A DNA stretch of 63,877 nucleotides, the filler included, from Kipferlia bialata (lineage: Eukaryota), in the NCBI GenBank assembly GCA_003568945.1. It is 6 parts of 5 records of this genome, joined end to end, with 100 filler letters (N's around TTAATTAATTAA, not from the genome) between each part and the next. Parts side by side here need not be neighbours in the genome. Positions count along the whole stretch, not along the records: positions 1 to 15,520 come from BDIP01000693.1; 5 more parts are not named here. One strand, given 5' to 3'. Position 1 is the first letter of the stretch, and each line of letters opens with the position of its first letter. The position numbers and the translations under genes were made by a program. Positions 148 through 59,400 of the stretch are shown here, piece by piece. The notes beneath the pieces were generated by a model. It was not told where the DNA came from, did not search any database, and was given only the letters and a program-made list of their open reading frames with translations.

Positions 148-640
148 GATCCATGCCCTTTGTGACCACTATGCCAGTTACAGGCTCTGCATACAGGTAT
201 AGAAGACACTTCATTAAGTATATTGTCTTCGCACGCAGCTATTGGGATTTAGTATTAAAAGGTAGAGAGACTATTTACTCATTAGGAGTATTGATGTGCA
301 TCAATATAAGGGCATCCTCTACTGATCTCTATGGATCAGATCTCTGGCCTGTACCTCCTAGCCTTTAGACAGACATACACGTATATCAATATATTCGAAT
401 AATATGTATATATATATCGATACTCACCCCTAGGAGCAGATCTCTGGCCTGTACCTCCTTGTGTACAGACAGAAGCTGAGGGTGGATCCATCCACTGAGG
501 GCACAGTGCAGAGGGGACTGAGGTATGCTACCTATATATGTACCTATGTATATATATATATATGTATATATATATATAGTGATACAGGAGAGCTGAGGGT
601 GGACCCATCCACTGAGGGCACAGTGCAACGTGGCCTGAGG

Positions 641-686
<46 letters not shown>

Positions 687-1641
687 GTTATGACACTCTC
701 TTCTTATATACATATATACACGAGAGGCGATGAGGGTGGACCAATTGACATTATTTGTATGCTCTATACATATATGTACTCTACACTATGTATGTGCGCT
801 AACACACAGACTGTGGCGTGAGATTGTGCTGTCCACCCCAGCCATGAGTATTCATACTGAATTCACTATGTATATGTATATGTACTAACTCATATACTCA
901 TACACTTCGGTGTTCTAACATACAGACTTTGGCGTGAGACTGTGCTGTCCAACCCTGCCATCAGTATTCCTACTTATATACACTATATATACTATTCCTC
1001 ATATACTATATATATATTATTCATTGTATATATTGAATTCCATATATACTATATTCACCTCTTACATATAGGCTGTGGCGTGAGATTGTGCTGTCCAACC
1101 CAGCCATCAGTATTCATATATACATACAATATATGCATAATATTCCATATATACTATATATATATTATTCATTGTATATATTGTATTCCATATGTACTAT
1201 ATATTCACCCCTTATTCATAGGCTGTGGCGTGAGATTGTGCTGTCCAACCCTGCCATTAAGTTTATATACACATTCACTGTTTGTACATACCTATTACTA
1301 TTCTGTATACTATTACATATACTGACACCAAGACTATGGCGTGAGATTGTGCTGTCCAACCCTGCCATCAGTGAGCATGTGCTCAAGGCAGCCGCACAGC
1401 ATCTCACGGGGTTACTCTTAGGTGCATTTCCTAGTATGTGTACATACTTATATTGTACCAATGTGTATGTATTATAGTATCAGTGAGCATGTGCTCAAGG
1501 CAGCCGCACAACATCTCACTGGATTGCTTCTGGGTATGTATCTATATATATATTGATGTGTATGTGGTTATGTACTATAGTATCAGTCAGCATGTGCTCA
1601 AGGCAGCGGCACAGCATTTGACTGGGCTCTTACTAGGTTCC

Positions 1642-1679
<38 letters not shown>

Positions 1680-1868
1680 TACCGTACTCACTGTAGATGA
1701 ACGTGAGCCTCTCCCTCTACCCTGGGGTGACACCCTGGTGGCCATGCTCATAGCCACTCTTTCAGTCTCTCTCTCTCTCTCACTCTCTCTCTATTAGTAC
1801 CCTAACTGTAGATGAGCGTGACCCCCTACCCTTACCTTGGGGTGACACACTTGTTGCCATGCTCATAG

Positions 1869-1900
<32 letters not shown>

Positions 1901-4900
1901 CTCACTGTAGACGAGAGAGAGCCCCTACCTCTACCTTGGGGTGACACCCTAGTGGCCATGCTCATAGCCACAGAGAGCAGTGTGGCACTCAATCATGCGG
2001 TGGAGGGGGTGCAGGCTGAGGCTAAGGTATTTATACTAATGTATTTATATATAGAGTGAGAGAATGAGAGGGAGAGAGAGCAGTGTGGCACTCAAGCATG
2101 CAGTGGAAGGAGTACAGGCAGAGGCTAAGGTATATATATATATATATACTATATTATCTCAATAATTACCATTATATAGTTGAGTGTATATTTATTGTAG
2201 GCCCTAACCTCCTACCTGTGAGTCTGGAGGAGTATATATGTAACATACATATATTGCAGCATACTATGTATATGACCTATATTTATCATATCTACTCTCT
2301 CACGCTAGCTCTGGGGCCACTCCCACCTTGACAGGGGGGTGAGTGTGGAGTATATATACATATTATTAGTATATGTTGTATATATATCCAGTATGGGTAT
2401 TCTATATCTTCTGACCACCAGCTCTGGGGCCACTCCCACCTTGACTCCGGTGTCTCTGTCGAGGAGTATACTATCAATATATATATCATATACTCCATAT
2501 CATGTACTCTATCCTCTAACCTCTAGCTCTGGGGCCACTCCCACCTTGACTCCGGTGTCTCTGTCGAGGAGTACATCAACCTGGTCAGTGAGGTCTGTGC
2601 AAGGTATGTATGTATGGAGATATATATGGATATATCTCTATCTGTTAGTTTATGTATATATATATGTATATATTGGTAATGAGTGGAGGAGTACATCAAC
2701 CTGGTCAGTGAGGTCTGTGCTAGGTATGTATGGATAGTGGATATGTCTATTAGTATATAGGTATTTATGAATATAGTCACATTGGTATAGTGTCGAAATA
2801 TTGCAAGACACAATCATCACATAGCTGTGATACTATTTTGTCCCACTCCTAACCCTCTCAGGATCGATGAGCTCCGTACAGGTGCCGAGCCTGAGCTGCC
2901 AGACATGCTGGTGGATGCAGTGCTAGAAGCGTTGATAACAGAGAACAGGTATTGTTAATGAATATGTTGTCATATATATATAGTAATAGTGCTGTGTTAG
3001 CTAATGAATAGTTAATTTATACTCTACTATACTACGAACTGCCAGACATGCTGGTGGATGCAGTGCTGGAGGCATTGATCACTGAGAATANNNNNNNNAG
3101 ACATGCTGGTGGATGCAGTGCTGGAGGCATTGATCACTGAGAATAGGTATATATATACTACATATATATATGTATATATTATGCTGTACTATACATACTA
3201 AACTATACTACGAACTGCCAGACGTGCTGGTGGATGCAGTGTTGGAGGCACTATGAATACATATATATATTATAGGCATAGTGAATGTACGAATATTGAT
3301 GAGTGCTTGATATATCTATATCGATATTCTTATCTCAGAGATAAGATCCTCACTGAGCTCCTCCCCCCTGTCCTCAACACCACCCCTCTCAATGTGCTGG
3401 GGACACTGCTGTTCGACCTGGCACCCAGGCTGCCAGGTACTCTATTATATACATATGTGTAAATACATATACACACATATTCAAGTATATCACATATATA
3501 CGTCTATAGGAAGAGAACATGAATACTCTAACTCTGTCTCTCCCTAAATCACCCTGCAGGCCTCTACTGGTCCATATCAATGCTCATAGTATATATACTA
3601 TATCCACAATTCGTGTCTCTCGCGAAGTAGTATTCTCTTTGTCAATTAGCTACTCACTCTCAGGCCTCTATGACGATGTGGTCCATGTCTAAGCTCTCTC
3701 TCTTTGCATATATACCCATATCTGCCATTCTGTCCAGTATAATAAGATGTATATATGATATATATATGATGTATATATGATATATATGCATATACACCCC
3801 TAACCCCCCAGGCCTCTATGACGATGTGGTGCATGTGGTTGCATCTGCCATGGGGGCATCCCTGGATGAGTGTGTGGAGGTTAGTGCAGTTTCGTATGTA
3901 TTTAGTATGTAGTTTAGTATGTTGTATGTTTATATCATCACTCATACTATATGTGGCATCTGCCATGGGGGCATCCCTGGATGAAATTGTGGAGGTTGGT
4001 ATTTCTGTCGAAAGGAGTTGGTTCTTACATATATATACAAAAATAATAACGATGTGCCTCTATTGTCTCACCCTAGAAGCACTCTGCCATGCCTGTCACA
4101 GATGCCTCTCTATTATTTATATCCATTTATACTCTCTATTGATGTGCATATACAGTATAGTAATCTGTGTTGCACTCTTACCCCTAGAAGCACTCTGCCA
4201 TGCCTGTCACAGACGTTGTAGCACTCTTTGAACAGGTCAACACCATCCTGGAGCACTACACAAAGGTATATATATATATATGTATATATCATTACATATG
4301 TATATATAAGACATGTGAATAGTAATTCGTTGTATTATGAGAGTCAACACCATCCTGGAGCACTACACAAAGGTATATCTGTATATATATATCACTATAT
4401 ATATATAGATGTGAATATGTATATTTTTGAACAGTAATATATTGTATAATGAGTGTCAACACCATCCTGGTAAAGGTGACAATGTATCAAAATTTGTAAT
4501 TTCATGCAACGGTCTACTATATACATTCTAAGAGTCACACGATGTAGTGTACTGATGTGTATAATAGTGATTACTGGTGCACTACACAAAGGTGACATCA
4601 TTCAGTAAGCAGTGTATTGTTACGCCAGAGGTCATATCATAAACACTTAGAATGATTCGCCATTATGTCATACGTGCCCTTCTAGTGTTGCCGCTGACCC
4701 CCAGACCGCCAAGGCTCTCAGGGACCCCAGCTGTCCAGACATAGCAGCCAGTCTGGAGTCAAGGTACAGTGAATATATGGATATATATATGTATACAAAT
4801 AGAGACGGGATATGCACGTATACTATATGGTAATTGGTAACCCAGCTGTCCAGACATAGCAGCCAGTCTGGAGTCAAGGTACGTATATTCATTCGGTTTC

Positions 4901-6183
4901 TCTTGTCTCAGTTCAGTTACTCAGGTTCAATCCAGAACTATGCAGTATACAGATGTACTTGTTTGTTGTGACCATTTTGTGATGTACTCACTTGAAACCA
5001 TCTTTCCCATATATTTCCACTATACATGACCAATGCTACTCACACCAGGATCAATGCCGAGTTTGGCCGCTTTGTTCAGAGGCACCCACCTCTTCCCATA
5101 TACACATCCAGACTGGTGCAGAGGATGATGATTGCCCCATCTGTCAAGGTACTTACAAGTTACACTATGTATCCATAGAGTGTTTGTTGCTGCTTTCACT
5201 ATTGTATGTAACTCATTGTAGGACAAGCTGGGTCTTGAGTCTGCATGGCTATTCCATACAATGTCTACATGAATATTACATTATTACGTATATATATAGT
5301 ATGGGGTAAGTACTAATTGCATATATGTCTCATCGTAGGACAAGCTGGGCCTTGAGTCTACCAGGACTCTGTCAAAATGTAGTATAGTATATATGATATG
5401 AAGTGTTCTCTTTCTCTTTTCCATATTATATATATACAATATATTTACTATCTGACAATAGGACAAGCTGGGTCTTGAAACTGACCTCTTCACTGTAGCA
5501 GCTCAGAACTCTGTCATATTTAGTACATGTGATATTAAGTTTCCTTTCTCTTTTCCATATTATAGATATACTATACATATACTGTCTCACCATAGGACAA
5601 GCTGGGTCTTGAGTCTGCCAAGACCGTTCATTAATATATATATGAAGGATTATGTATATGTGTATATAATATGCAATATATATTTACTATCTCACCACAG
5701 GACAAGCTGGGTCTTGAGTCTGCCAAGGGTCCCCTAGACCACCTTGCTGGACTGCCAGTCAGAATAGCAGCTGGTATGTGTGAATACATTATGCATAAGT
5801 GTATGTATATGCACTATTGTACCGATGTGATCATATAGGACTGCCTGTCAGGATAGCAGCCGGTACATTCTTGAATGTATGGGTATATACTTATGTATGT
5901 ATGTTATATATTCATTCTATATATTCTATCTATTCTTTCTATATATGTAGGACCCTTGACCACCTTGCGTGTCTGCCGGTCAGAATAGTAGCAGTTATAT
6001 ACTCTATTATATATAAGTATATGTGTATGTCTATTTGTACTTCTCTTTATACACATACATAGTATAAGAATAGTGATATAGTGTATATGTAGTATTGACT
6101 CTAGGCCTGCCTGTCTCTGCCCGGGATGACTTCTTCCTTGCACTGTATATATGTATTGTAACTATTCATATATACTGGCATTT

Positions 6184-6229
<46 letters not shown>

Positions 6230-7468
6230 CGAGTGCGACTAATGCTAGGCCTGCCTGTCTCTGCCAGAGATGACTTCTTCCTGGCCCTTGCCTCAGGTCT
6301 CGGTTGCAGGCTGATTAATGGGGTATGATACATATGTATATATAGTGTCTATATGTATCACTAACACTTGACACTTAATCAGAATCCTCGTGTGTGGTGG
6401 ATGCAATTTAGCGCATGTCTTTTGCGTTCAATCTTTACATTGAGACTTAGCAATTTGGCTATGCTGTGTATATACTATTATGAGTCTCACCCTCTAGCAG
6501 TCCAGTGTCACTAGAGAGCGTGACCTTGTGGGTGCGTTTGTGGCAGAGGGACTCAGTGGAAGGTACTCCTATATATAAATATGTATATGTATATATATAT
6601 ATATATCCATGGATATCTAACCCTAAGGTGTGGAGGCCTGGCCGATGTCCTGGCAGCAGATGTCATCACTAGTACTATAGTGTACACATATATACTATTG
6701 TATATATATATAGAGAGAAGGCATATGTGTATATATAGAGTGATATATGGATACACACACATATATATGCAACTACTCATTCCCTCCACTCAGTATGTAG
6801 TTCACTGTAAACATCTAGTACATTCCCACTTTACACTTATCCCCTAGGTTCAGCCAGAAGTTCTACAGGCGCAAGGTAGAGTTTCTCGCAAGGTGAGAGA
6901 AATCTATTGTCAGTGTCTTCTTCTTCCCTATACTCAATTTCATGAGCTAAATAGTATTGTATGCGTATTTGTCCTAAAACCTTCTTACACCAGCATTGGT
7001 ATTCTGTAGTGACTCTGTATACGAATATGTACTTCTCTAATACCAGCATGGGTGTGTGTGAGGTGGCTGCCACCTATGGAGAGGGCAGTACCAATACACA
7101 TATATTTACATATATATATATTCAATGATGCAGTTGTATGAGGACCCCTCTGACTTGTAGTATGGGTGTGTGTGAGGTCGCTGCCACCTATGGGGAGGGC
7201 ATACCCACCACCCTAGTAGTGCCAACGTCATGCTACATGATACTGGCAGCCATACCCCCATCTGGGCCAGTAACTCTCAGCCAGTTGAAGGTAAATATTG
7301 TATGCTCATATATATATATATAAATATATAGTATCAATAGTACACTATATTGCAAATTGGAGCAGGGAGTCAGGGCGGCAGCCCAGCATACATGTTATGT
7401 ACCTTCAACTGACTTAGAGTCACTTGTCCAGCAGTGGGTATGGCTGCCAGTATCATGGAGCATGACAC

Positions 7469-7509
<41 letters not shown>

Positions 7510-8425
7510 ACTTCTCACTCCAGGCTGCCGTCTCCCTCCCCGACCCCCTGCTCCTCCCATATATATATATAATGTATGCATGTATACTATACATATACTA
7601 TATACTATATATATACAAGTATTCACACACCTGATTACCAGGCTGCCGTCTCCCTGCCTGACCCCCTGCTCCTCCCTTCCCTAGCAGCTCTGGCCTCTCA
7701 TGCCCACCCACTTCTACTAGTCCACAAGGGAGGGGAGAGAGGGGAGGCAGTTATCACACACAACAGGGCATTTATACCAGCTGCAAGGGTATGTAACCGT
7801 TTCAATAATCTCAATTGTCTACTCGATTGATGTCTCACGTGACAGGTACATGTCACCATCTCTGAGGATGTTCTCGAGGCTGATATACTGGCCGAGGGAG
7901 AGGCTGATGCCGAGGAGTCCCTGTTCCCCAGTGACCACAGGGCAAAGCTCATACTCTACAAGTAAGTACTATATATGATGTAAAAAGTGGTAAAATATCC
8001 GTACCTAGTATATTTCATGTATGTATGTGTATTATATATATACCCAGCTCAAAGACATGGGCCAGATGCCTGAGGCAGAGCTATACATACACTATAGAAA
8101 TGTATCTGTGTGTGTGGATGTATATTCAATGATACAATATATACATTTAGTACATCATATATATGTAAACTCTGACTCTAGGCACCTCAAGGACGTGGGC
8201 CAGATGCCCGAGTCAGAGCTGCTGGAGTACTGTGTCACGGCTGGGAGGGGGTCAGTCTCTATCGAGGACGCCAAGGTTTGTATCCCAAGTATCTATTCTC
8301 AGTGGATGATGACAAGTATGTATTTGTATACTTCACTCAGCTTTAACTCTCAGGTTGCCCTAGAGCGTGCCTTGAATGTGTTTGACTTTGCCAGAGAGGG
8401 TGTGGACATAGTGTGGGAGGACTAG
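148..8425 (+). CDS. Divergent cullin-family protein (5'-partial, >20 exons, introns inflated by exon echoes)
   Basis: GT-AG exons read manually, e.g. 434-522, 1333-1421, 2527-2603, 6249-6322, 7161-7290, last exon ending TAG at 8425. LPVSARDDFFLALASGLGCRLING-QSSVTRERDLV resembles cullin KDVF..FY...LAKRLL..S.S.D.E. MGVCEVAATY..TTLVVPTSCYMILAAIP..GPVTLSQLK-AAVSLPDPLLLPSLAAL..LL...VITHNRAF resembles the cullin homology domain. The C-terminus (ILYKHLKDVGQMPESELLEYC...VALERAL) resembles the winged-helix domain. Family call by eye. Confidence 0.6.
799..809 (+). promoter_or_regulatory. Fused branch point / 3' splice site CTAACACACAG (general pattern YTNAC-n3-YAG)
   Basis: Same spacing or close variants at many acceptors: ctcacccctag (423-433), ctgaccaccag, ctaacctctag, ttacccctag. 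Confidence 0.7.
810..1636 (+). repeat. Exon-echo array around exon 1333-1421
   Basis: Four upstream copies of acceptor + CTGTGGCGTGAGATTGTGCTGTCCAACCC.GCCAT (810, 925, 1072, 1222) and two downstream copies of ATCAGT.AGCATGTGCTCAAGGCAGC... + GT donor (1479, 1582). Confidence 0.95.
5222..5995 (+). repeat. Exon-echo array around exon 5701-5773
   Basis: ag|GACAAGCTGGGYCTTGA at 5222, 5339, 5462, 5597 and 5701 (intact). Copies of the 3' half lie at ~5838 and ~5951. Confidence 0.93.
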
Positions 8426-11427: not shown

Positions 11428-13947
11428 TCACTTGTCTAAGTTGCAGACCCACAGGATGGCGATGTAGTGGCATATGGTGCCTCCCATGACAAAGAAGTGC
11501 CACAGAAGGTGTCCAAAGGGTACTAGTATGAGATTAAGAGAGAGAATTGCTATATACTATAGACTATGTGCCACCCATGACAAAGAAGTGTCACAGAAGG
11601 TGGCCAAACGGTACTGTAATGAGAGAGAAATAGAGAGAAGCCATATAATATAGCCTCTGTGCCACCCATGACGAAGAAGTGCCACAGCAGATGGCCAAAG
11701 GGGACTGATATGAGATTGAAAGAGAGAACTGCTATATATTATAGACTATGTGCCACCCATGACAAAGAAGTGCCACAGCAGATGGCCAAAGGGGACTGAA
11801 ATTAGACGAAAGAAAGAGAGAAACTGAGATATATGGAGAAACTCTCTAGTAGTCTACTAGACTAGTAGAGAAGGAAGAGGGCGTGTTTGATAACGGTAGA
11901 TACACATATACTTACCAACGTGGTCAGTTGCATAGAAGATGACACCCAGAGAGTAGGAGAGACCGCCTGCAACCAGCCAGATGATCCCTGATGTTAGGGT
12001 GTAGAGAGAGATAAAGTAAAACAGACACCCTCCCTCCAGGGTAGATAACGTCTCTATTTAGAATGTAGACAGAGAAAGAGGGAGAGAAGGAGACACATAC
12101 CTGGGATTGGCATGACTGCCAATAAGGGCTTTGCCGCCAGGATGCCTATCCAGCCCATGACTAGGTAGAACCCAGTAGATGCCTGAAGGGTAATAGAACA
12201 GCACTCATAATAGTACACCCATATATGTATATCTATTCCCAAGGTATAGAAGGAATTTGAAAGTATATATGGAGAGTACCTGTGGGTGTGCGTGCGAGTC
12301 ACCGCACAGCTTGAACAGTATCCCCCCCACTGCTAGGCCCCACTCTGCTACCAGGAAGGGCCACCTGACATCAGATTGGCGAAGATATATACTATTTTAC
12401 TCATAATAGTGTATAATGACAGGGAGTTTCTCCACTCTGCCCCAAGGAAGGGCCATCTGATATCAGACACACAGTCTTCTATATACATGGCATGAAAGAG
12501 CCTATGTTCCCTTCATTGTTGTCTCATTGGATGCATACATAGAGAGAGAGAGTCTTACCTCCATGGGTCATCCAGGACCTCAAGGATGAAGGGGGTGTAG
12601 GTGCCTGACAGTGAGAGTCTTATGTATATATAGGAATGAATACACACTTTGTTATTGTGTTACAATTGTGAACAATACGACAAACTATACACATGCTATG
12701 AGAAAGAACTTGAGAGGTAGAAACAGAATAGACATAGGCATGTGTTGAGAAAACCCACCAGCGATGAGCAGGTATATCACTGTGTGGTCGACCAGTCTGA
12801 ACCAGGCCTTGAGGGCAGTGCACCTTGGGTAAAGTAGTAGAGTATCCTAGATATATACAATACACGTGGAAGATGTATATCTACAGCATTCTAGAATGTG
12901 CATGTATGCTGTCGTCAAATATATTGGTACTGGACTTTACATTCAGGAGTCTATACCTACTATGATGGTACTACTCTATATGAATATTCCTACCTTGTTG
13001 GCACTGCGTGGTAGATGGTGGAGCCGAGGTAGAGTATGAACCTGGAGAGTGAGTGGCAGCATACACGATGAGTGGATGTGTACTCACCTGCTTACTGCCA
13101 TGATTACTCCACCTACCACAGTGACACATTTCTAACAACAACAGAGTGACTTGTAAGTACTGTATATACTGTATACTATACAGCATGACTCACATGCTTG
13201 CCACAAAGACAGCTGTCCCCACCACTGTGACTGTGTCCCCGTGCTCGGCAGCATGGGAGCTGGCAGTAAGATGTATACATAGCATATATATATAGGTAAG
13301 ATAAACCAATTGAGAAAGAGGGAAACACGTATCCTCCAGGAAGAGTAGAAAGAAGTGCCCCTGCTACCATAATAGTTATACGGCATATTACTACGTACCA
13401 TATATGTATAGTGAATATACGTGCATATGATTGGTAAGCATTCAGCGCTACGCAACGTACAGCAGATTGGGTGCAAACACGAGTGCCCCAGCTGCCATGA
13501 GACCATGGCTGATGGTGTTGGCAATCTCCTCACCTAAAAGTAAGAAGACAGCTTATATAATAATCGCTGAACGGTCTATATTGAGAGAGAGCATGAACAG
13601 GGCCAATGATGGAAAGCACTAATTTGGCTTTGACTCTTGTCATATTTCAACAGTCACTCACCCGTGGTCTGAAGTCTCTCCCTCGATATGACCCTGGGGA
13701 GGAGAGCCTCCTCTCTTTCCTAGCAGTGAGAGAACACATGCACACTATAACTACTTCATATAGACTTGGGAGACGAGTACTATACTAGTTTCCATACCTT
13801 CTGCCTTGCTGCTATCCCATTGTGAGACACAGCGATGGTGTGCTTGTGGAGAGCAACTCCCTCCCCATCCCCCTCTCTCTCATTGTCGACACCCACATCA
13901 TACGTGTCAGCAGGTGATGACTGTACAGTAGTCTCAGAGTCAGGCAT
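11428..13947 (-). CDS. Hemolysin III / PAQR family integral membrane protein
   Basis: Spliced peptides EEIANTISHG, STIYHA, DHTVIYLLIAGTYTPF, FYLVMGWIGILA, WLVAGGLSYSLGVIFYA, PFGHLLWHFFVMGGTICHYIAI match the HlyIII/PAQR motifs. ATG at 13947, TGA at 11428-11430. Confidence 0.92.
11476..11797 (-). repeat. ~91-bp tandem array of acceptor + 5' part of the last HlyIII exon
   Basis: Four copies encoding PFGHLLWHFFVMGG. Confidence 0.95.
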
Positions 13948-15620: not shown

Positions 15621-15909
15621 AGACAGAGTGCACAAAGGGAGAGGGAGAGGGGGAGAGAGAGGGGGAGGGGGAGGGGGAGGGTGGCACGGTAGATAAGGCT
15701 GGTGATGCTGTGAGAGAGAGACTTGGCAGAGAGGGCGAGTGCCTCTCACACTATGTATCTAGGTATCGCTGGTCTGGTGAAATCTGCAATACTTGAGAGA
15801 TATACTGATTGGTACACGTCACTGATTCCCCCAGGCTATCCGGCGTTACCACGTTCCTCTCCGACATCGCCCCTGTGCTCAGGGAGGACACACCGCAGTT
15901 CACTAGGTA

Positions 15910-15957
<48 letters not shown>

Positions 15958-18900
15958 ATGCATGATGCAGCGCCCAATGTGCGGGACCTCACAGGTATAA
16001 TGACCGTTGAGCCTGGATATACACATCTCATACCAGCACCCTAGTCCAGACCTTTGGCTAAATATATCTTATATCTCATTTATATATATATATATATATA
16101 AAAATATATATATATCTTATCATATATATATCTTATCCTATATATACATCTCATACCAGCACCCTTGTGCAGACCTTTGGCCCCTTTGCTGCTGTGGCAC
16201 TGTCCACATACATAGCCAGGATAGAGGCACCCCAGGTACATATATGGATATAGACATACATATATATATATGTATATGTATATATATATGTATGTGTTTG
16301 GCAAACATATACACAGTAGGCAGGATAGAGACCCAGGTACATGGGATGTCTGTCGGCTATGACACTGATATGTCTTGAGATGTACATATGTCTCGCTGGG
16401 TCCTCCCTGCTATCATCCACATATTTTATATTATATATATATATATATTATATATTATTGTAAAGCTATATGTATTCACTACACTATTCTATGATGATAT
16501 GTGGTGTAGTATTATGATTTTGACCAACCACAGGGCTTTGAGGGCGAGAGAGAGAGAGACGGAGGGGTAGGTGACAGCGACCTGGGGGGATCCCTATCGG
16601 CAAGGTATACTCCCGTGTTATACACAAGTGTTCGACATTCATATATATATCGTACCGACACAGTGCAACAATGATACTTATAAGAGACGTGTATTTTCGA
16701 GAGTCTCACTTCTAGACTGTCCGGTCGCTCAGACAGAGAGAGAGAGAGACAGGGGCTGAGTCTTGAGGACTCAAGGGGCCACCCCCACCCCCACACTCTG
16801 AAGGGGCCAGATAGGAGTAGGCGCAGGGAGAGTGTCTCTCGGAGCAGACGGCGGATGAGTATAGGCTCAGGTACTGTATCCGGTAGTCTACACTGTCACC
16901 GGATTGCGATCACATCCTCTCTCTCTCTCCATATATATATGTATAAGGTATAAGTATGTATAGCCATACCATTCACTGTCAGGCAGTCTGAGTGGGAGCA
17001 GGATAGGCAGCATCAGACACCTCGACAGGGGCAGGGACATGGACGGGGACAGGTGGTGTAATTAGTATATATATATATACCAACTATATTAGTATATATA
17101 TATGTACTATAATGAGTCATGGCAGGGACATGGACGGAGACAGGTGCAGGGGTGTTTGTGATGTCGTGTGTTTGTGGGGAAGAGAGATGGTTTCATATTG
17201 TTATATTAGTCGTCCCATTAGTGACGCTCATACGATTGTTGGTCAGTATAGTGTGCTGTCCCTCTTGAGTCTGTCATACTGAGCGTTCTAATTGATATTT
17301 ATATGCACAATAATGAGTCTATTCTAATGGCAGGTGGAGAGCTGCCAAGATCCGTGAGAGAGAGAGAGAGAGAGGACGCGAGAGGGAGAGAGAGAGGCAC
17401 CCCCGGCAGATCTCTGGTGGATACACTGGATCTCTAAGAAGTGAGTGTTGCAGTGGTTGCTTTCATCCCTCCACGTGTCTTCATTGCTTCGCCCACATAT
17501 TCTCTCTCTCTTTCAGACCAACCCCAGACCCCCCTGTCACTGTCATCGGTCTCCCTCTCTCTCTCTCCCTCTCTCCCTCCTTCCTATATACTACATGTCC
17601 CCCTTACCCCAACCCCAGACCCCCCCATCTCCCCTGTCACTGTGATTGGTGTCAATGCCAAGGACCAGGACCCGTCCAGACTGGGCAGTGTGCTGTCATC
17701 GTTCAGGTACATGGCACATATCTCTCTACATAGACTCTGTATTAATGGTATATGCAATATATGACTAGAACATATCCGCATGGCAGTGTGCTGTCATCAT
17801 TCAGGTGCATGTGACTATATCACTATATGTAGTACGTTTATGCTATTGATTCTTTATACACAATTTATATATCATTGCCATTAGTGTAACACTCACCAGT
17901 ATCGAGACTGAGTAGTGTCCTGTCATTGTCCATTGTATGTATGGTATGTCTAGTGTATTGTGTGTATGTCCTGACCCCAGTGACAGTGAGTCCTTATATA
18001 TGTAGTGAATGTGTATATATGCACACTATGTATATATGTGTGATGCCTCTCCCCCCAGTGACAGTGAGTCCTCTGACATTGGGGTCGAGATGGTTGTGGT
18101 GTCCAATCACGACATGGACAGTGACACCGAGGAGAGCAGCGACATACAGGTGAGAGGGGTGTTGGGAATACTACCCACTCACAGAGGTGTGTGTGGTGGA
18201 TATACCAGTATGTATTGGATTGTATACACTGACACCATGTCAGTGTGTCGTGTCAGGATATACCATTACATATATATACATACATATATATATGTATTGT
18301 ACCCTTAATACCAGGTCAGTGTGACGTGTCAGGGTATACCACTATGTATATTGTGTTATTAATACCAGGTCAGTGTGTCGTGTCGGGGTGTGCTGCAGCG
18401 GGAGAGGGGGGGGGAGGGGGATGGGGATGGGCCTCTGTCCACTATTCTAGAGACAGAGACACAGGGAGATGGGGGTCCAACCCCTGCCGAGGATGCTATT
18501 CCAATGGAAGACCCTGGTGCAATGGAGCCCTTCAACTGCTCGTGCCTGCTGGCCCCAGGTGACATAGAGAGAGAGAGAGGGAGGGAGGGAGAGGCAGAGG
18601 CACAGAGCGGGGCAGCACAGGGGGAGGCCTCCTGTGTATTAACACCAAACCAGTACAAGGTACATGTGTGTGGATATATGTGTGGTTGTGTGTGTCCAGT
18701 GGTGACATTGGAGATCTGTATCCCCATTCCCAGGTTACCTCCCATCTCAGGGCCGCCTCCCAGTGATATCAGTTTCTTTTTGTGTATAGTGTGTATGATT
18801 ATCATTATATATATGGCCTCTAGATCATCAACTCACCCCATCCCCTGCTCTCCAACCATATATGATTATTATGTATAATTATAGTTGTATAGTATATATA

Positions 18901-20531
18901 TTTATAGTTAGTATAGTATATATAGTTATAGTTGTATAGTATATATATATGAGAATGTGTGTGTGTGTGTCATCACACCCACCCCCAGGCCCTACTCTCC
19001 AACCTGGTCTGCTATGCGGACATCCCACCCCCAGTCGGCAGAAACACAGGTGGGCTCATAGATATGTATACATATATAGATATATACATGCACATATGCC
19101 CAGCCACTCCTTAACTGTATAACTGTATTACTGTCCGTTGTCTGTTCGTTGTCCCCCACCCTCACCCCCAGCCAGCCATGTGATACCCGACATTGCAGTC
19201 CTGTGTGGCTACTCGGGTAGGGACATTGACACGTATATGATATACGTCTATGTGATGTTGATAGTGGCTACTCGGGTGGGGGTATTGGATTTAGCACATA
19301 TATATGATCTACTTCTATGTGATGTTGATTTGTTTGTGTTTGTGTGGTGGCTACTCGGGTAGGGGTATACTGCACGTTATATGTGTTGAATTTGTATCGA
19401 TGTGGTCCAAGTATACGGGTCTGCTGTTGGCCCTTCTTGTATCAGTACAAGCATCGGTATCATTACATCATCCGCTGTCATACATGGTACCTTGGCCGAT
19501 GCATGTATACCCTCACTCCCAGGTGATGACATGTATATATATATCTGTATATATACACTCACTGCCAGGTGATGACAGGTATATATATGTATATATATAT
19601 ATATATATACCCTCACTCCCAGGTGATGACATGTATATATATATNNNNNNNNNNNNNNNNNNNNNNNNNNNNNNNNNGTGATGACATGTATATATATATA
19701 TATATATATACCCTCACTCCCAGGTGATGACAGGCAGAGTGCAGAGCCAGTCTTCAACATAGCACAGGCAATGCTTCAAGGTAGGGGTGTCTATATATAT
19801 ATACAGTGATATATATATATACACAGGCACTGCTGCAGGGTATATATCCAATGTGGATATATATATATATATATATATATATATCAAGGTTTCTAACGTA
19901 TCATATGTACCCATCTCTCACTCCAGGCATCCTGGTTGATATATTTATATATATATAGCACAGGCCATCTCTCATCCCAGGCATCCTGGTTGAGTTCCAG
20001 CAGCCCCCCCACAGACTCACCCTCGCTCTGCTCAAGGTACTGTATACTATACTATAATATAGTATAATGTAATATATTATATTATAATATAGGTACTATC
20101 TGACATGTATGAATATATGTGAATATATATAGTATATGGATACCTCATACCTGTACAGAGGCAATCTGACTGGAAGTGTATAATAATCATGGACTATATT
20201 AGGCTCCCTCACTTCATATCCTCTGTGTCATGCCTCTCTGACGATACATGTATGAATGTATATATATCAATCTATATATACTTATGAATTTGTGGATGCA
20301 GTCTATATTTGTGAATAGTGATGAACACTTGTGTAATGAAAAACCCATTTAGAATGTGTTCCACACTCTCGACACATTATTGTGTTCGTGCACACTCTGT
20401 ATCTGACTCCAGGCCACACTGAGGCCCTCAGTACTGCGGAGAGAGGACAGGGAGAGAGAGAGGGGGACTGAGGCCGAGCGGCCTGCAGCAGAGACAGACG
20501 ATGCAGCCAGGTGAGAGATCCCATGCCACCA

Positions 20532-20567
<36 letters not shown>

Positions 20568-22116
20568 CTCTCTCTTCGTCTTCCTCTGATTTCCCAGGTG
20601 GCAGGGCCTGTGCCTGACCTTTGGGGCCGTGACATACACGCCCCTGACCCCTTTCAGAGCGGCACCTGCTGCGGCATCCACACTCAGTACGTATGTGTAT
20701 GTATATAACATGTGTATACATACGTTTCTATACCTATATCTAAGAGTGTTTATTAGTGTGTATCGTATGTCTTCCCAAGCACTGCCAGATGATTCGAATA
20801 CATATATACCAGTTCTTCATCTCCATACACGATTAACCCCAGCCAACTACCCCCACACTCCCCTGTCTCTCTCCCTCTCTCTGTCCCGGACCAAGAGCGG
20901 CAGGGAGAGAGAGCACCTGGAGACAGAGAGAGAGTTTGGCAGGGAGAGTGGCATGATGAGAGATCCACTGGTACGTATGATACACATATACCAATACAAT
21001 AATCTCTCATGTATAATCTCTTCTTACCCATACAATAATCTCTATTCTATATGTGTATTCTCTTCTTATGTATCAGGTCACTCCTAGGGCTGGGGAGAGA
21101 GAGAGAGAGGCCCATATAGAGAGGGAGAGAGAGACGGATACTGTCCCCCACACCCCAGCCGGTAGACTCTCCTTGCTAGAGGGGGATAGACCCCCTAGCT
21201 TCCTATCCCCACAGGTAGCCCATACATACATATATATATATATATATGTATGTATAGTGTATATATTACTGGGTCAATCAGTCAGTTTCCAGCGACTGAT
21301 AGCTGTGTTTCCTCTAATGCCACATATCCATTGCCAATGCGTACAGGGAGCCTTATGAAAGATACTTCTCTTACTGAATCTGATGAATGTCTCTGTATTG
21401 TCTCTATGTATATACATATTTACATCATGTCTGGATTGTGCCTCTACCCCCCAGGTCAGCGAGCTGACAGAGTCCAAGCTCAGACCAAGGTCACTCAACC
21501 CAGGTACCAGCATGTATATCTGTATGTGTGTCTGCATCGAATACCCCCTCCATTTAGCGTCGGACAGTGTCTTCTGGTATCACACGCATGCACTGTGTGT
21601 CTCATAGTACCTTTGTTGTCCTCCATCAAGTGCATCCCTCCCCCCCCCCTCTCTCTCTCTGTCTCTGTATCTCTCTCTCTACCCCAAGGCCGGACGGTGG
21701 GCCGGGACTGGGTGCCGGGTCGGTATCTGCAGTACCTGATGGTCAGATGGGGCAAGAGGGTGGTGGGGCATCTGGCGTACGTGACAAGTGGAAGTGTACA
21801 CGTATTGATGTAGACATATATTATGAGTAGTGAATACTATATATTTGTATTTATACAGCAGTGCTTCTCTGTATGGAGTCTGTTCAACCCCCCACCCCTA
21901 ATACAATATATATATATACATTACTCACCCCCCAGGTACATGCTCCTGTCTGGGCACACCGTCCTCATCACAGCTGCAGCGAGGTAGACAGGGAGTGGTA
22001 TTCATATATACTCAGCACATGTAGTATCAGTGTAGGATCTTGTGTATTAGTATTGTGCATAGTACACATTCTAGTACTCTGCCCCTGACTCAGCACATGA
22101 AGTGTCACTGCCAGTA

Positions 22117-22155
<39 letters not shown>

Positions 22156-22393
22156 AGTACACTGTGCTCTGCCCCTGACCCCAGGCAGGTTGGCCCCAGG
22201 ACGGCAGGGGTCATGGTCAGAATAGCAGAGGCCCTGTCCATATTCACACCCGGCGTCAACGGACAGGTACAGCGTCATCATGTGTGTCTTGTGTTAGTAG
22301 TATATCATTGAGGTAACGGTTACGAAGTGCCACACAACACCTTATCATGTCAAGAAGTATAGAACTGTCTGCCGCCTCTGTGTGATATATGTA

Positions 22394-22428
<35 letters not shown>

Positions 22429-25281
22429 CTATCTACACCCCCCACCCCAGGCCCAATCCGGTCATGTCACATGTACCCGTACTTACGGGCCATTTGTGGC
22501 CAACTCACTCGTTGCAAGGTACGTATATACCATATTGTTTGCGCATTTCTTTGCCATATTGTTATGAGACTCACTTTTGAGCAGTCTTGTATGTCTGTAT
22601 CGTGACGCCAGGATTGTCAAGACCCCAGCTGAGCCTAGACTGAGGGACATTAGGGACATGGAGAGAGAGAGAGAGTCCACAGGGCTCACTGCCATAGTGG
22701 ATGATGTCAGGTGCCAGAGTGTACAGTGACTATAACACTAGTTGGATGATGAAATACACTACACCACTTGTTCTAATGGATGCAGGGGCCAGGGATATCC
22801 ACAGACCCCTTGGGCTGAGAGGGAGAGGGGGCGAGAGAGCGACCGTACCCAGTACGTGGGGTACCTACCCCCCAACTGTGTGGAGATTGACAGCACACAC
22901 AACCTACTAGGTTAGTAGTAGGCCTAGTTGAGTACAAGAGTACAGTGCGACCTCAGTCTATTCACTCCATTCTTTTGTCTGTTCCACTATATACTGTATA
23001 TACAGGTATATTTGTTTACCCCCAGGTGTTCTCCGTCGTCCGTCTTCCTTTGGACGTATCCTTCTGTGCAAGGACGGCCACATTGACACGGACACGGCGA
23101 TCGACACAGACGACCCCATCGAGTACTTCAGGTGTGCATAGTATATATGGATGCATCTAGACATACACAATACATATATAAATATGACATATGCTCTCTC
23201 TCCATACCTGATTCTGTCTGTGTCTATAGATAGATACTGATACTCACCCCAGCAAGATTGAGGTGGACACTGAGTCTGCCAGGCTGGTGTTCATGCACAA
23301 GACTAGCAGAATGGAAGGTGGGATCAGTATCAGTATCAGTATCATAACAGAATGGAAGGTGGGATACGGATTGAGCCGTTGCATACCCAGCGAGTTATGT
23401 CAGTTGCACCTGTCTTAGTAGTACCATCCATTTGCATTGCTACAATAGTATTTGATGCACCTGCCAATTCATATTTGTATTGGTCTATACGTACATATAG
23501 GTGTATAGGTATGCCTCTGACTCCAGACAGGGACAAGGACAATGCTTGGCAGCGCAAGTACCACAAGAACTGGACACATACACTGGCAGGTGGGCTGGCT
23601 CTATAGTATCAATGTCTCTCACATAAATATATAGACATGTGAATATTCATGACACCCTAATAGTTGAACCCACACACTGGCAGGAAGGCCGACTCTATAT
23701 AGTGTATAGTATCTACTAACCGCCTGTCTGGTGAGAACCTCTCAATGTTAGGCCTCCTCGGTCCCCTCACTGACCCTAGGCATCAGCACATCAATGTCTC
23801 TCATGTATATATATATATATGGAAATTTCATGACACCCTTATAGTTAAACCCACACTGACTCTAGGCATCAACACTGAGACCATCAAGCACATGGTGGGG
23901 ACAAACACCCAGGTCATGCCCCCCTCCCCCCAGGCAGCCATGGCACACACACACGCACAGCTGCACTTGCTAGGTATACATACATGTGTGGATATGTCGG
24001 TGCACGATATCTCTCAATAGTACTGGGCTTCTGTGTGTTTCTGTCTGTGTTTATTGTGATTATTATATTACTTTAGTGAATTGTGAATTGTGAATACTCT
24101 GACTGCAGGTCAGCGGGCTCTGCGTGCATTCGTGGTTTCTCTCAGGGAAAGGGAGAGGGAGAGAGAGAGACTCGAGCTCAACACAAGGTGAGTTCCTAGC
24201 TACAGAATTGGCTGGATGGATACAAGTGAATATATGTATACATACTATTATTGGTAGTAGACCTATGTGTATAGTATTCAGTTATACTGGTGGAACTGCC
24301 ACGACTGACGTCAGGAGTGCTAGAGAGAGAGACTGGGACAGAATCAGGGAGAAGGAGAGGGAGAGGGAGAGGGAGAGAGAGAGAGAGAGAGAACCCCTCC
24401 CCTCTGACACCATTGTGGAGTATCTGGCCATTCTGGTGAGTTCTGTTGATTGATAATTATATGTATATAGTTGCTTGTATATAGATATATATATGCGCCA
24501 CACTTCTATTATATCGATTGTCATATATGTGCGGTCGTTGTCTGGCCATTCCAGTGAATGCACGTGTATAGGTCTCTGTGTATTCAACCACACACCGAAT
24601 TTCTATATGTATATACTTGTTATTCCTATATCTGTGTACTCACCCGCAGGTGGTGAATTTCTATGTATATTGTTGTTATTCATATTTCTGTGTACTCACC
24701 CTTAGGTGGGTGTCAATCTGGACCAGTGTAGAGCACAGCGGGAGAGGGAGAGAGGGAGAGAGAGAGACGCCCATGGGGACAGGGGGATGCACAGTGAGCA
24801 GATCCCGTTCCCATTCGACCACGCCGCAGGTGAGGCTCTCTCTCTCTCTCTCTTCTCTTTACTCTAGTGCATTCCCTGCATCCATTTCTATATATTCAGA
24901 GAGTGCAAGTCTCAGAATCTGACCCTTAGGCTCTAAGCAGCAGAAGAGGATCCGGCGTGTCTCTCTGTTTCCAGGTATGCAGCTTCTCTTCCTACCTCTC
25001 TTTCTCTCTGTCTCCGTCTGTCCACCTAGCCTCTTCACGATGATGTGTACGCTTATCACTCTATCAGTACCCCTATATATGCATATACCATATATACCCT
25101 GTATACCCTATATACATATTTACCCTCACCCCAGGGATCACCCCATCCCTCAGACACCCCGTACCCAAGCTCTTTGAGGATGTACACGAGGCATCCATGG
25201 AGCAGATACTGCCGTACAAGCCATTCTTCAGAAAGTAGGGGAGAGGGAAGTATTTACCGAAGACAGTCCTTTCAGGGATAG
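15621..25281 (+). CDS. Large multi-exon hypothetical protein (5'-partial; low-complexity RE/G/D-rich stretches); could be more than one gene
   Basis: About 30 GC-rich islands bounded by ...cccag/GT, e.g. TLVQTFGPFAAVALSTYIARIEAP, DPPISPVTVIGVNAKDQDPSRLGSVLSSF, GRYLQYLMVRWGKRVVGHLA, RDKDNAWQRKYHKNWTHTLA. No family recognised; the stop is at 25177 or 25281 depending on frame. Confidence 0.55.
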
Positions 25282-55817: not shown

Positions 55818-56423
55818 AGCCGATACCCGGGTGCTGGTGTGTAAAAGACACCCCAAGACCCCAGGTTCAGGCTATTATTGGTGGAAAACACACCTGGGGG
55901 TCGATGTCCATGTGAATATCTGGGGGCAGGAGGCATCTCACTACAGTGCTTGCATTGAGGGTATCATTCGGCACAGACACATTCAGAAGTCAAGTACTTA
56001 GCCCATACTACTCGTATGCCAGTAATACTAGTGTATGGGCATGGTCAGGCTCGACTAGGACTCAATGAAGAGAGTAACACAGTTGTTACTAACAGATCTA
56101 CTCACTTCCATAAATCATTGGATACTGCACCCTTTTCTCTTTGAGAATAGCAACCTTCAAAACGCAATTTGGTTCGCATTACTCGAAGCGTCCTATGTCT
56201 CCACACAAAGATCAGTATAAGAACTAGTATATCTACTGATACCAAACGGCAGTGATTATGTAAAAACATAACATAGCGTACACTAGTAAGACGAGAAGTC
56301 TCCTTGTATGCACTGAGTTCAATTTGGAATTGGGTGTCCAATGGATAGCTCACAATACAGCATATAGAATAGATCTTCCATTGGGAGAACCACACATATT
56401 GTACATCTATTTGGACTGATGGG

Positions 56424-59400
56424 TCACCGGTACAGGACCTCATCACCCTCATAGTACCTAAGGACCTGGGGGTGAGTATTACAATCCATATATATATAGT
56501 ACCCATCACTGGTATGTATTCTGGGTATATACTAACCTGGTACTTCTTGTCCTGTGCCCTGGCCACTGCCTTGAGCTCCCTGACCCTGGGGTGAATATAT
56601 ATGTATATATATATATATATATGTATATAATTCTATATATAGACATTATAAGAGAATAAGAGGTGAGGGGGTGAATATATATATATAGATATAATATGTA
56701 GATATTATAAGAGATGTATGTGTGTAGACATGGCCACTGCCTTGAGCTCTCTGACCCTGGGTGAGGGTATGTATATAACTAGAATACATATGTATATATG
56801 ATATTATAGTTATGTATATATGACATTATAGTTATGTATATATGATATTATAGATAGAGATATATGTGTGTAGACATGGCCACTGCCTTGAGCTCTCTGA
56901 CCCTGGGTGAGGATATAGCACATTTGGTATTACACTAATCTATTAGTATATATACAAATATTACAATACACATATATATGAAAGAGAGGCACACTATCAT
57001 TTACCTCCCCTTCGTCCTGTCTCTCCCCCTCTCCACATCTGGGGGCAGCATGTAGTCAGGGTGGGACGGGCAGGACCTGAGGGATAAGTAGGTGTATACT
57101 AATACATATATATATATATATTTAGGGGCATCATCTAGTCAGGGTGGGAGGGACATGATCTGTGGTAAGTATATATATATATAGAGAGAGAGAGAGCATG
57201 TAGTCAGGGTGATAGGGGCATGACCTGGGGTTAGTATGTATACAAAGAGAGAGAGAGAGAGATCATCTGGGGGCAGCATGTAGTCAGGGTGGGAGGGGCA
57301 GGACCTAGGATTAGTATATATATATATATATATATATACATACACCCACCTATCCACATGCTCCAGGTCTATGCCTTCTGTGTCTGGCACAGTGCCGGGC
57401 TGGGGTGAGAGTGTATCTAGACGATATGCATTTATATGCCGACCAAAATGTGTCTGCAACAGTGCCAGAGGCTAGGATAAATAATAGTGTATAGAATACC
57501 CACATACAATATACTAAACCCTATACCTTTGGCATTGATGAGGGGTCCTTGTTCAAAAACCGTTCCGCATACACAGTATGGCACTTCTTCTCAACCCTGA
57601 GGGTGAGACTCATAGTCACAGGATACCAATGGAGTATGTGTTTCATATGCATATATTTACCTATATCTACATACCTGTCGAGTATGACACTCTGCATGGT
57701 GCACTGTAGTGGGTACTTGGGGGTACGGCCAGCTCGGGAGGCAGCAAACTAGGGAATTGGAGAGAGCAATATAGATGCTGAGGCAACAAACAAATATGTG
57801 GGACGCTGCATACAAGAAGTATATTGAGAGACTTGTTCCTCCTGCATATGACAAGAATGCATATATGAATCTATGTGAGAATTAATAAATATACCTGGGA
57901 TGCAGTGAGAGATGCCCGTGGAGACTGTGTGAAGTGGGAGGTTGAGTGGGTGGACATGGATGGGACACGGCTCTGGTTGTCTGGGGTCCTTGGCCCTAGG
58001 TACTTCTGGGTACTGCCACTCAGTAACGAGTCAGTACCAGCTGCAGGTGACACTGGGACAGCTATGGACAGTGGAGTGTGGTGCTCCCCAGCGTGTATAG
58101 GGGAGTGTGTATCCATGGCAGTACGCTCTCTCTGTCTGTATGTGTGTGCATCTGTGTGTGCATGTGGTACTGGTAGGCAGGGAATGGGTGAGGAGGAGGG
58201 GCTCTTTCTCTCCCTCTCTCTCTCTCTGCCCCTCTCTCTGCCCCTCTCTGTTGGTGACACCAACCCTCCACGCACACTCTGACTAACCATCTCTCTCTCC
58301 CTCCCCCTAGATACCTCTCTCTCCCTATCTCTCCCCCTTGATATCTCTCTCTCCCCTTGTGTTGGTGAGGGTGCGGGAGAACCCAGGATGCCGTAGGAGC
58401 CCTGCCTGACATATTAGATGGATTACGCAAACACATTACAGAAAAGAAATAATTCGGGCTCAATACTGCTCTATATATATTGTGAGAATAATATATATAG
58501 AGTCAACCACACAAATGTAAAAATGTATGTATACGAACCTACTCATCATGGGACTGGGACCGGCATCGTATGTGGCATGGTATGCCCTGACATGAGATCG
58601 ATACATATGTATGACATGAATGATATAATAGTATATCATATTTCTCGTCTGCATAGTCTCTGAAAGTACAATATACCTCTCTCGCACATTCAAAACAATG
58701 TATATAAATATGCATATACATAATATACCTCTTGCTCTGCCTCATCCTGGCAATGGCACCCATCTATATACATACACACACACTATATCTTATGCATATA
58801 TATACTATTCTATATACTATATACTACAAACTATAGATACCTCTTGCTCTGCCTCATCCTGGCGATGGCACCCTCAGTCAGCACAGAGGTCTGAGGGTAA
58901 GGGGTAGGTAGATATGTATGTATAGAGAGTGAGGGGGGGGGAGAGAGACACCCTTGAGACATATACAGAAAAGTTCTCATCCACAATAATACATAACATT
59001 TATACTTAGAGAGAGAGAGAGAAAGAGAGAGAAAGTTGATACCTCCTTTGGCGACAGACACACCCTGGAGACTTATACAGAATAGTTCTCATTCACAATT
59101 ATATTTAACTCTTACCGTCAGAGAGAGAGAGAGAGAGAGAGAGGGAGGGATAGAGAGAGATCTGTACCTCCTTTGGGGACAGACACACCCTCGAGGCTGG
59201 TGACCCACTGTGAATGGAGCGGGGAGAGGAACTGGCCCTGACAGACCTACTATGAGGTATACAGGTAGAGAGAGTAATGCAAGATGTACATATGATAACT
59301 TATGGCATTCCAGAAGCCCCAAGGACTGCTGGCTCTGACTGAAATACTTGTGTGTAAATATAGTACATTAATACATACACAATAACTATTGGAGGGTGGT

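What the first reader, a model, noticed from the sequence alone, without database searches (positions are those of the whole stretch)
148..8425. Polar 'exon echoes': introns are built from half-exon copies arranged symmetrically around each intact exon
Seen: upstream of an intact exon lie 1-4 copies of [branch/AG acceptor + 5' part of the exon]; downstream lie copies of [3' part + GT donor]. I saw no reverse arrangement among the direct copies I checked. Examples are exons 434-522, 1333-1421, 1911-2026, 2527-2603 and 5701-5773. The same design recurs on either strand in most blocks (16.0-23.9 kb, 32.3-33.8 kb, 36.2-37.4 kb, 38.4-46.6 kb, 56.5-60.3 kb). The flanking intron sequence usually differs between copies, so most are not simple tandem repeats. 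Inference: an exon is broken internally, a complete copy with its splice sites (e.g. from a homologous allele) is inserted into the break, and the old halves are pushed outward like Russian dolls. This would be an exon self-replacement / intron-growth process. I know of no description of it, but cannot check the literature.
Basis: partly seen in the sequence, partly recalled or inferred. Interest (0 to 1): 0.92.

Follow-up and report, generated by a model that had tools for sequence, protein, structure and literature searches.

The report
Introns built from fossil allele half-exons
In the genes examined from the free-living protist Kipferlia bialata, much of the intron DNA consists of strictly oriented copies of the neighbouring exon's edge with its splice site; they differ from the working exon mostly at silent positions and are likely old exon halves pushed aside when exons were repaired from strongly diverged alleles.

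Summary
The echoes are real. Independently assembled DNA contigs span echo junctions without differences, and an RNA-type contig splices only the intact exons. Across 120 exons, 56 5' halves lie upstream, 38 3' halves downstream, none reversed. The polarity follows from geometry, and the symmetric 'Russian doll' is not supported: 12 exons have both halves against 11.3 expected.

New here: echoes differ from their exon mainly at silent sites (0-fold 3.9%, 4-fold 25%), whereas a dead identical copy gives a ratio near 0.5. Their intron flanks are nearly unrelated to the working flank, inner echoes are youngest, and such repeats are exon-anchored. So echoes were coding sequence in diverged versions of the gene.

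Best reading (0.55): a break in an exon is repaired one-sidedly from a diverged allele, bringing a new exon half plus about 70 nt of intron and displacing the old half; unequal exchange enlarges arrays. No donor allele was found. Echo splice sites are strong but skipped, implying exon definition. Ten paper searches and three look-ups of this scan's notes found no description.

The parts
148..8425 (+). 20-exon gene (cullin-like, 5' end off the contig), 34 echoes in its introns
   Evidence: model equals P0001; Pfam Cullin E 5e-8, just under the curated cut-off; echo count
334..373 (+). 5' echo of exon 434-522 (exon nt 1-40), period 100
   Evidence: on one DNA contig (104-532) with two real exons, 0 differences
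434..522 (+). working exon
   Evidence: spliced in X2
591..639 (+). 3' echo of exon 434-522 (nt 41-89) with GT; 5 silent, 0 replacement differences
810..1257 (+). four 5' echoes of exon 1333-1421 (810-849, 926-965, 1073-1111, 1223-1257), each behind an AG acceptor, sharing one break point
   Evidence: DNA contigs 693-1030 and 1228-1366, 0 differences
1333..1421 (+). working exon
   Evidence: spliced in X2
1479..1632 (+). two 3' echoes of exon 1333-1421 (1479-1528, 1582-1632)
   Evidence: DNA contig 1367-1508
1707..1868 (+). two 5' echoes of exon 1911-2026 (first 10 nt masked as repeat in the alignment)
1911..2026 (+). working exon
   Evidence: spliced in X2
2080..2129 (+). 3' echo of exon 1911-2026
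2309..2468 (+). two 5' echoes of exon 2527-2603 (2309-2350, 2422-2468)
   Evidence: DNA contig 2439-2554
2527..2603 (+). working exon
   Evidence: spliced in X2
2683..2723 (+). 3' echo of exon 2527-2603
   Evidence: DNA contigs 2571-2715 and 2691-2924
3036..3249 (+). three 3' echo pieces of exon 2862-2948; the first two flank an 8-N gap and may be one copy
   Evidence: DNA contig 2895-3065
3664..3994 (+). exon 3812-3879 with 5' echo 3664-3688 and 3' echo 3953-3994
4077..4591 (+). exon 4188-4265 with one 5' echo and three 3' echo pieces
4836..4878 (+). 3' echo of exon 4705-4763, nearly identical, with a flank scoring no better than unrelated flanks
5222..5992 (+). exon 5701-5773 with four 5' echoes (different break points) and two 3' echoes
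6105..8082 (+). single 5' echoes at 6105-6144, 7060-7092, 7524-7558, 8045-8082
7385..7466 (-). inverted 3' echo of exon 7161-7290 with its GT and flank; the one strong exception in orientation
11428..13719 (-). 10-exon membrane-protein gene with 4 echoes, three upstream of the last exon
15835..25238 (+). long gene(s), 32 modelled exons, 7 echoes at score >=30
31720..33989 (-). AMMECR1-family gene with 5 echoes
38406..46603 (-). 24-exon gene with 34 echoes
56418..60165 (-). 12-exon gene with 10 echoes

Best explanation
Each echo is a splice-site-bearing half exon that sits about 105 nt from its working exon and differs from it mainly at silent sites, and it is likely the old half displaced when a break inside the exon was repaired one-sidedly from a strongly diverged allele. 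Shown: anatomy, polarity, silent bias, unrelated flanks, exon anchoring, inner copies youngest, echoes spliced out in the RNA contig. Inferred steps: (1) alleles are alike only in exons, so only a break in an exon finds homology; (2) one end invades the other allele and copies the rest of the exon, the splice site and about 70 nt of intron; (3) the copy finds no match in the diverged intron and is joined to the untouched second end by alternative end joining; (4) the old half and old intron end up outside the new splice site; (5) later events repeat this, or misaligned exchange between an echo and an allele's exon adds units sharing one break point; (6) the result is tolerated because the spliceosome pairs the closest acceptor and donor across an exon (exon definition).
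For: Silent bias: 202 of 289 differences at third positions, 0-fold 78/1995, 4-fold 138/552, pN/pS 0.14 (96 echoes); innermost echoes only, ratio 0.125, bootstrap 95% 0.07-0.20; simulated dead identical copies give about 0.5, minimum 0.35 in 180 runs; the bias holds for the 17 echoes of RNA-supported exons (11/468 vs 39/139) and between neighbouring echoes (6.8% vs 27.6%). Flanks not copied in cis: 0.61 vs 0.545 control, 1 of 93 at >=0.8, equally low for the 14 echoes with identical exon part. Age order: 0-fold 7/525, 24/499, 17/250 by rank, 4-fold flat, 14:3. Exon anchoring: 129 of 140 near-diagonal repeats touch an exon or echo, and the other 11, by my reading of the list, lie in echo units or beside unmodelled exons. 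One-sidedness. At least 12 nt of exon always remains unechoed, against 4.7-11.6 shorter cases expected. Machinery on record for K. bialata: PolQ, Spo11, Msh2 and four Dmc1 entries present, Ku70 absent (supplement rows of PMC8516963); Fornicata lack Rad51A; Dmc1 stabilises mismatched joints (PMC6719624); crossovers favour exons in a hypervariable fungus (PMC4209137 abstract).
Against: No donor was seen: two protein searches gave one member each and no second allele appeared at >=90% likeness on 1-3730. Flanks are more diverged than 25% silent divergence alone predicts. 22 of 35 neighbouring echoes end within 5 nt of each other, so repeated new breaks are not the whole story. The 30 nt next to the break are less diverged than the rest (52/301 vs 82/290 third positions by half; 0 of 150 uniform simulations reach this), which the simplest version does not predict. 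One echo is inverted. Junction microhomology cannot be read without the donor. The gene models other than two are my own predictions.
Confidence: 0.55

Rival explanations
1. Ordinary in-cis tandem duplication across a splice site came first; afterwards the working exon half and its flank were swapped by conversion or unequal exchange with diverged alleles. Echoes are still fossil alleles, but the creating event is mundane.
For: Explains polarity, shared break points (22 of 35 neighbours), lower divergence near the break and a few similar flanks (0.82-0.87 in three pairs).
Against: No innermost echo has a flank at >=0.8 identity, even with an identical exon part; no comparable repeats were seen away from exon edges in 47.6 kb of non-exon sequence (microsatellites masked).
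Confidence: 0.2
2. One reading: a whole exon with both splice sites is inserted into a break in the old exon and both halves are pushed out at once.
For: 5 of 12 two-sided exons have break points within 6 nt (2.1 expected, P=0.04); nested age order.
Against: Two-sided exons 12 vs 11.3 expected; 26 of 30 one-sided exons lack the complement; 7 of 12 two-sided exons do not fit within 6 nt.
Confidence: 0.07
3. Echoes are kept under coding selection because they are used now, as alternative mini-exons or by non-canonical jumps between exon and echo.
For: Silent bias; near-normal splice-site scores; the deposited model P0002 includes one echo as a 39-nt exon.
Against: The RNA-type contig skips all 17 echoes of six introns and matches the exons without differences; that run's share of words, 0.14, equals the exon-only share 0.137; echoes carry 4 stops and 9 gaps and decay outward. 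Contigs drop rare isoforms, so minor use is open.
Confidence: 0.07
4. The exon edge is recopied from itself by a highly error-prone process and only products with silent errors survive.
For: Needs no unseen allele; junctions are enriched in dinucleotide runs (30 of 96 vs 14%, p=1e-5).
Against: At 25% error a 40-nt tract is free of replacements only about once in several thousand events (my estimate), and flanks would stay about 75% identical rather than 0.61.
Confidence: 0.05
5. Assembly artefact: allelic variants stacked by a short-read assembler (the period is close to a read length).
For: Short-read assembly of a genome reported diploid (PMC5874029); some echoes abut N gaps.
Against: Independent contigs cross echo-to-spacer junctions with 0 differences at depth 292-407, the same as exon-bearing pieces; 0.92 of words held; no intact allele contains a half exon followed by intron-like DNA; dropping N-gap introns changes nothing.
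Confidence: 0.03

Closest known systems
One-sided invasion / incomplete SDSA finished by end joining (Puchta 1998 as cited in PMC9299229, passages seen)
   Same: One end of a break repaired by copying a homologous template, the other by non-homologous joining; predicts a duplication of the copied tract.
   Different: Known from gene-targeting experiments; here it would be a recurrent natural process at 49 of 120 exons with a narrow tract length (median 107 nt), and the template has not been seen.
Tandem genomic duplication / internal gene duplication (PMC3443670, passages seen; Gao and Lynch 2009, recalled)
   Same: Short local direct duplication that includes splice signals; gives the same polarity.
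   Different: Those copies start identical and decay neutrally; here differences are silent-biased, flanks nearly unrelated, and repeats exon-anchored. No new intron is created; existing introns grow.
Exon-focused crossing-over in hypervariable Schizophyllum commune (PMC4209137, abstract seen)
   Same: Exons act as homology islands between alleles about 14% apart.
   Different: Clean crossovers there; the abstract mentions no duplicated half exons.
Tandem exon duplication with mutually exclusive splicing (recalled)
   Same: Exon-like copies in neighbouring introns with silent-biased differences.
   Different: 0 whole-exon copies among 114 hits; echoes are skipped in the RNA contig.
Introner elements (PMC9860276, search listing only)
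   Same: Genome-wide remodelling of introns in a protist.
   Different: Each echo copies its own neighbouring exon; no dispersed family was found in the window.

Membership tests
In-cis tandem / internal gene duplication | Direct, adjacent copies | tested here: met
   109 of 114 hits direct; spacing median 109.5 nt
In-cis tandem / internal gene duplication | Whole unit, intron part included, is copied, so young copies have near-identical flanks | tested here: not met
   flank identity 0.61 vs 0.545; 0.56-0.69 where the exon part is identical
In-cis tandem / internal gene duplication | Dead copy decays without regard to codon position (0-fold/4-fold ratio >=0.5) | tested here: not met
   0.16 observed, 0.5 simulated
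In-cis tandem / internal gene duplication | Occurs independently of exon position | tested here: not met
   129 of 140 repeats anchored on exons or echoes, rest in echo units or beside unmodelled exons
One-sided invasion repair products | One side homologous, other side an illegitimate junction | tested here: met
   seamless exon on one side, abrupt echo-to-spacer junction on the other; sides independent
One-sided invasion repair products | Copied tract matches an identifiable homologous donor | tested here: inconclusive
   no second allele or relative found; donor inferred from silent bias
One-sided invasion repair products | End-joining signature (microhomology, templated inserts) at the junction | not testable with these tools
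   needs the donor sequence; only a dinucleotide-run excess was seen
One-sided invasion repair products | Dependence on recombinase and Pol theta | not testable with these tools
   genes listed for the species; no experiment
Tandem exon duplication / mutually exclusive exons | Copy has both splice sites | tested here: not met
   0 whole copies
Tandem exon duplication / mutually exclusive exons | Copy is used in mRNA | tested here: inconclusive
   17 echoes skipped in one contig; contigs drop rare forms; one echo is in a deposited model
Introner-type mobile introns | Dispersed family of similar inserts | tested here: not met
   no dispersed non-microsatellite family in the window; whole genome not held

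The most novel reading that the evidence does not exclude
Kipferlia exon edges and splice sites are continually overwritten by Dmc1-driven, mismatch-tolerant one-sided repair from alleles that differ at a quarter or more of silent sites and are nearly unalignable in introns. Introns are then ordered stacks of displaced alleles: a single genome records recurrent recombination between very divergent individuals in a fornicate, about 40% of intron DNA arises this way, and the protist splices by exon definition despite short introns.
Probability: 0.45. Interest if true: 0.9.

Novelty: new variant of a known kind. Interest (0 to 1): 0.8.

Why it matters
It gives a mode of intron growth and splice-site turnover that is not among the listed mechanisms of intron change: echo units make up 10,663 of 26,181 intron bases in the modelled genes. 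If echoes are displaced alleles, one genome holds a population sample and evidence of recombination in the lineage of Giardia's free-living relatives, where sex is poorly documented (my knowledge). It would link the unusual repair kit of fornicates (no Ku, no Rad51A, Dmc1 paralogs, PolQ) to a visible footprint. Strong but skipped decoy sites make splice-site choice in a deep-branching protist directly testable, and they can mislead gene prediction.

Tried and rejected
Whole-genome test: no genome held. RNA: no holder on record as RNA; X2 is a guess, though its contig is spliced at GT..AG. Reads were laid on 1-3730 only; some bins have no X1 cover, which proves nothing. Two metagenome scans for relatives found none (168 and 118 pattern matches, 0 confirmed). 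The repeat finder was swamped by TA runs. Direction of silent changes shows no clear GC or AT trend (35 vs 48), so a composition bias was rejected as the cause. In-cis conversion of echo by exon was rejected by reasoning: it removes differences but leaves a ratio >=0.5. Selection on echoes through occasional back-recombination was rejected by reasoning: rates high enough to purge replacements would also erase the 25% silent divergence. A strictly fixed tract length was not confirmed (echo length vs spacer, rho -0.20, p=0.13). Rows left out of counts: 18 of 114 hits (score under 30, inverted, or the internal piece at 38.9 kb); genes at 25.4-31.1 kb, 46.8-52.9 kb and the two exons nearest 36.2 and 37.4 kb were not modelled. 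Pfam gave nothing for the 1233-aa ORF and two single exons. Paper searches and note look-ups gave no description of this pattern.
Full report
Source and set-up. The window is six contigs joined by N-padded linkers. Two single-exon protein searches each returned one record, named Kipferlia bialata, on contigs of 15,520 and 15,499 bases. No whole genome is held. I built ten gene models, 120 exons and 110 introns, from a small gene finder and manual curation. The model for 148-8425 equals the deposited protein over 574 of 574 residues; the AMMECR1 model shares its end with the deposited protein but lacks one exon that the record includes. The other models are my predictions.

Is it real? Run X1 holds 0.92 of 858 sampled words of 148-8425 and run X2 0.14; exon-internal words alone would give 0.137. 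On 1-3730, the eight longest X1 pieces shown match with no differences at depth 292-407; one carries a real exon, a 5' echo and the next real exon (104-532), another two echoes (693-1030) (78 further pieces not shown). One X2 contig splices seven exons at GT..AG without differences and skips the 17 echoes in between; its last piece lands on the echo at 3664 only because the true exon lay outside the laid stretch, and its loose end reads on in that exon. No second allele appeared at 90% likeness; a more diverged one could be missed. X1 and X2 are one sample and may be the assembly's source, so they test the assembly, not generality. Stacked alleles are very unlikely, apart from copies at N gaps.

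Anatomy. Of 114 hits, 56 are upstream 5' halves, 38 downstream 3' halves, 15 direct internal pieces, 5 inverted, none reversed or whole; 215 of 25,960 control comparisons reached the threshold. I kept 96 direct echoes at score 30 or more, on 61 exon sides, in 49 of 120 exons and 50 of 110 introns. Spacing has median 109.5 nt (quartiles 96-123), innermost exon part median 33 nt. Intron length rises 100 nt per echo (r 0.82), and echo units cover 10,663 of 26,181 intron bases. In 10 of 10 introns with both kinds, donor echoes precede acceptor echoes. Two genes hold 68 of 96 echoes; two others with 26 exons hold none.

Polarity and symmetry. A duplication across an acceptor must leave the truncated copy upstream, and across a donor downstream, so polarity says little about mechanism (inference). 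Symmetry fails: 12 of 100 internal exons have both halves, 11.3 expected within genes, and 26 of 30 one-sided exons lack a complement of 20 nt or more. Five of 12 two-sided exons fit within 6 nt (2.1 expected, P=0.04), all in the first gene.

The decisive signal. Differences between echo and exon fall at codon positions 43, 44 and 202; 0-fold sites differ at 78 of 1995, 4-fold at 138 of 552; pN/pS is 0.14. With one echo per exon side the ratio is 0.125 (95% 0.07-0.20). A dead identical copy run through the same pipeline gives 0.49-0.52, never under 0.35 in 180 runs. The bias holds for RNA-supported exons, for the two genes with deposited proteins and without N-gap introns, and between neighbouring echoes. 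So most of the divergence arose while both versions were coding. Within arrays 0-fold divergence grows outward (1.3, 4.8, 6.8%) while 4-fold stays 22-29% (14:3 with 6 ties in 23 arrays, p=0.013; 4-fold 9:7). Silent distance is therefore present from the start, and too large to rebuild between events, which points to several standing, diverged versions (inference). Flanks are barely above unrelated introns (0.61 vs 0.545; 21 of 93 at p<=0.05), also for 14 echoes with identical exon part. Near-diagonal repeats are tied to exons (129 of 140; the other 11, by my reading, lie in echo units or beside unmodelled exons).

Mechanism. The simplest account is one-sided repair from a diverged allele: exons are the only homology, one end copies the remaining half exon, splice site and some intron, fails to re-anneal in the diverged intron and is end-joined to the old second end. 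This predicts one-sidedness, newest copy innermost, foreign flank, silent bias and a minimum unechoed arm (12 nt or more in 61 of 61; selection against near-whole copies explains this too). Shared break points in 22 of 35 neighbours suggest added units by misaligned exchange. Unexplained: lower divergence within about 30 nt of the break, which would fit staggered ends; near-saturated flanks; one inverted echo. The repair kit fits: PMC8516963 reports no Ku-type joining in metamonads and Dmc1 paralogs in place of Rad51A in Fornicata (passages), and its supplementary table lists PolQ, Spo11, Msh2 and four Dmc1 entries but no Ku70 for K. bialata (rows seen; one scanned file not searched). Dmc1 stabilises mismatched joints (PMC6719624, abstract and one section). 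Against: no donor was found and no relative in metagenomes, though the species is reported diploid by k-mer peaks (PMC5874029, passages).

Splicing. Echo acceptors score 8.5 bits against 9.7 for real ones (48 vs 110, p=0.05) and echo donors 9.0 against 9.4 (32 vs 110, p=0.65), far above other intronic AG or GT, yet the RNA contig uses the pair closest across the exon in six of six echo-bearing introns. Pairing across the intron would pick the echoes. Exon definition is the likely reading (inference, one gene, one contig).

Comparison and novelty. It works like one-sided invasion (PMC9299229, passages) in a setting like hypervariable Schizophyllum, where crossovers favour exons (PMC4209137, abstract). 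It fails three defining tests of plain tandem duplication and is not among the seven intron-gain routes in PMC3443670 (passages). In the genome paper the strings 'duplicat' and 'tandem' do not occur in the main text (methods section read; supplements not read). Ten paper searches and three look-ups of this scan's notes found no description; the library lacks most subscription papers and matches only exact phrases.

Verdict. That echoes are former coding halves from diverged alleles I put at about 0.8, the specific mechanism at 0.55. Interest 0.8.

Noticed in passing
window 15521-15620, 31137-31236, 46736-46835, 52916-53015, 61402-61501: N-padded TTAATTAATTAA linkers: the window is six separate contigs.
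   Followed up: yes
window 7385-7466: Inverted copy of the 3' half of exon 7161-7290 with donor and flank; it has silent changes and several amino-acid changes, like a diverged allele.
   Followed up: partly
window 33003-32965 (-): The deposited AMMECR1-family protein P0002 contains this 5' echo as an extra in-frame exon, repeating 12 residues: mis-prediction or real exonisation. The record's name, alpha-methylacyl-CoA racemase, does not fit its Pfam family.
   Followed up: partly
window 38898-38876 (-): An internal piece of exon 38812-38720 lies directly behind the previous exon's donor, one period upstream: an echo whose acceptor and older intron are gone.
   Followed up: no
window 3091-3098, 19645-19677, 43958-44043: N gaps inside echo arrays; copies on either side may be gap-overlap duplicates.
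   Followed up: partly
window 41229-41129 and 39525-39421 (-): Reading frame breaks inside two exons of the 24-exon gene; assembly error or real frameshift.
   Followed up: no
window 46954-50652 (+): Intron-free open frame of 1233 codons, no Pfam match and no local repeats, unusual among these intron-rich genes.
   Followed up: partly
echo junctions, whole window: CT runs follow 10 of 55 5' echoes and GA runs precede 6 of 41 3' echoes, never the reverse.
   Followed up: partly
window 20843-25238 and 62488-63812: Two genes with 26 exons have no echo at score >=30, while two others average more than one per exon.
   Followed up: no
window 16.5-24.8 kb and 58.0-59.9 kb: GA microsatellites inside predicted exons encode Glu-Arg repeats.
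   Followed up: no
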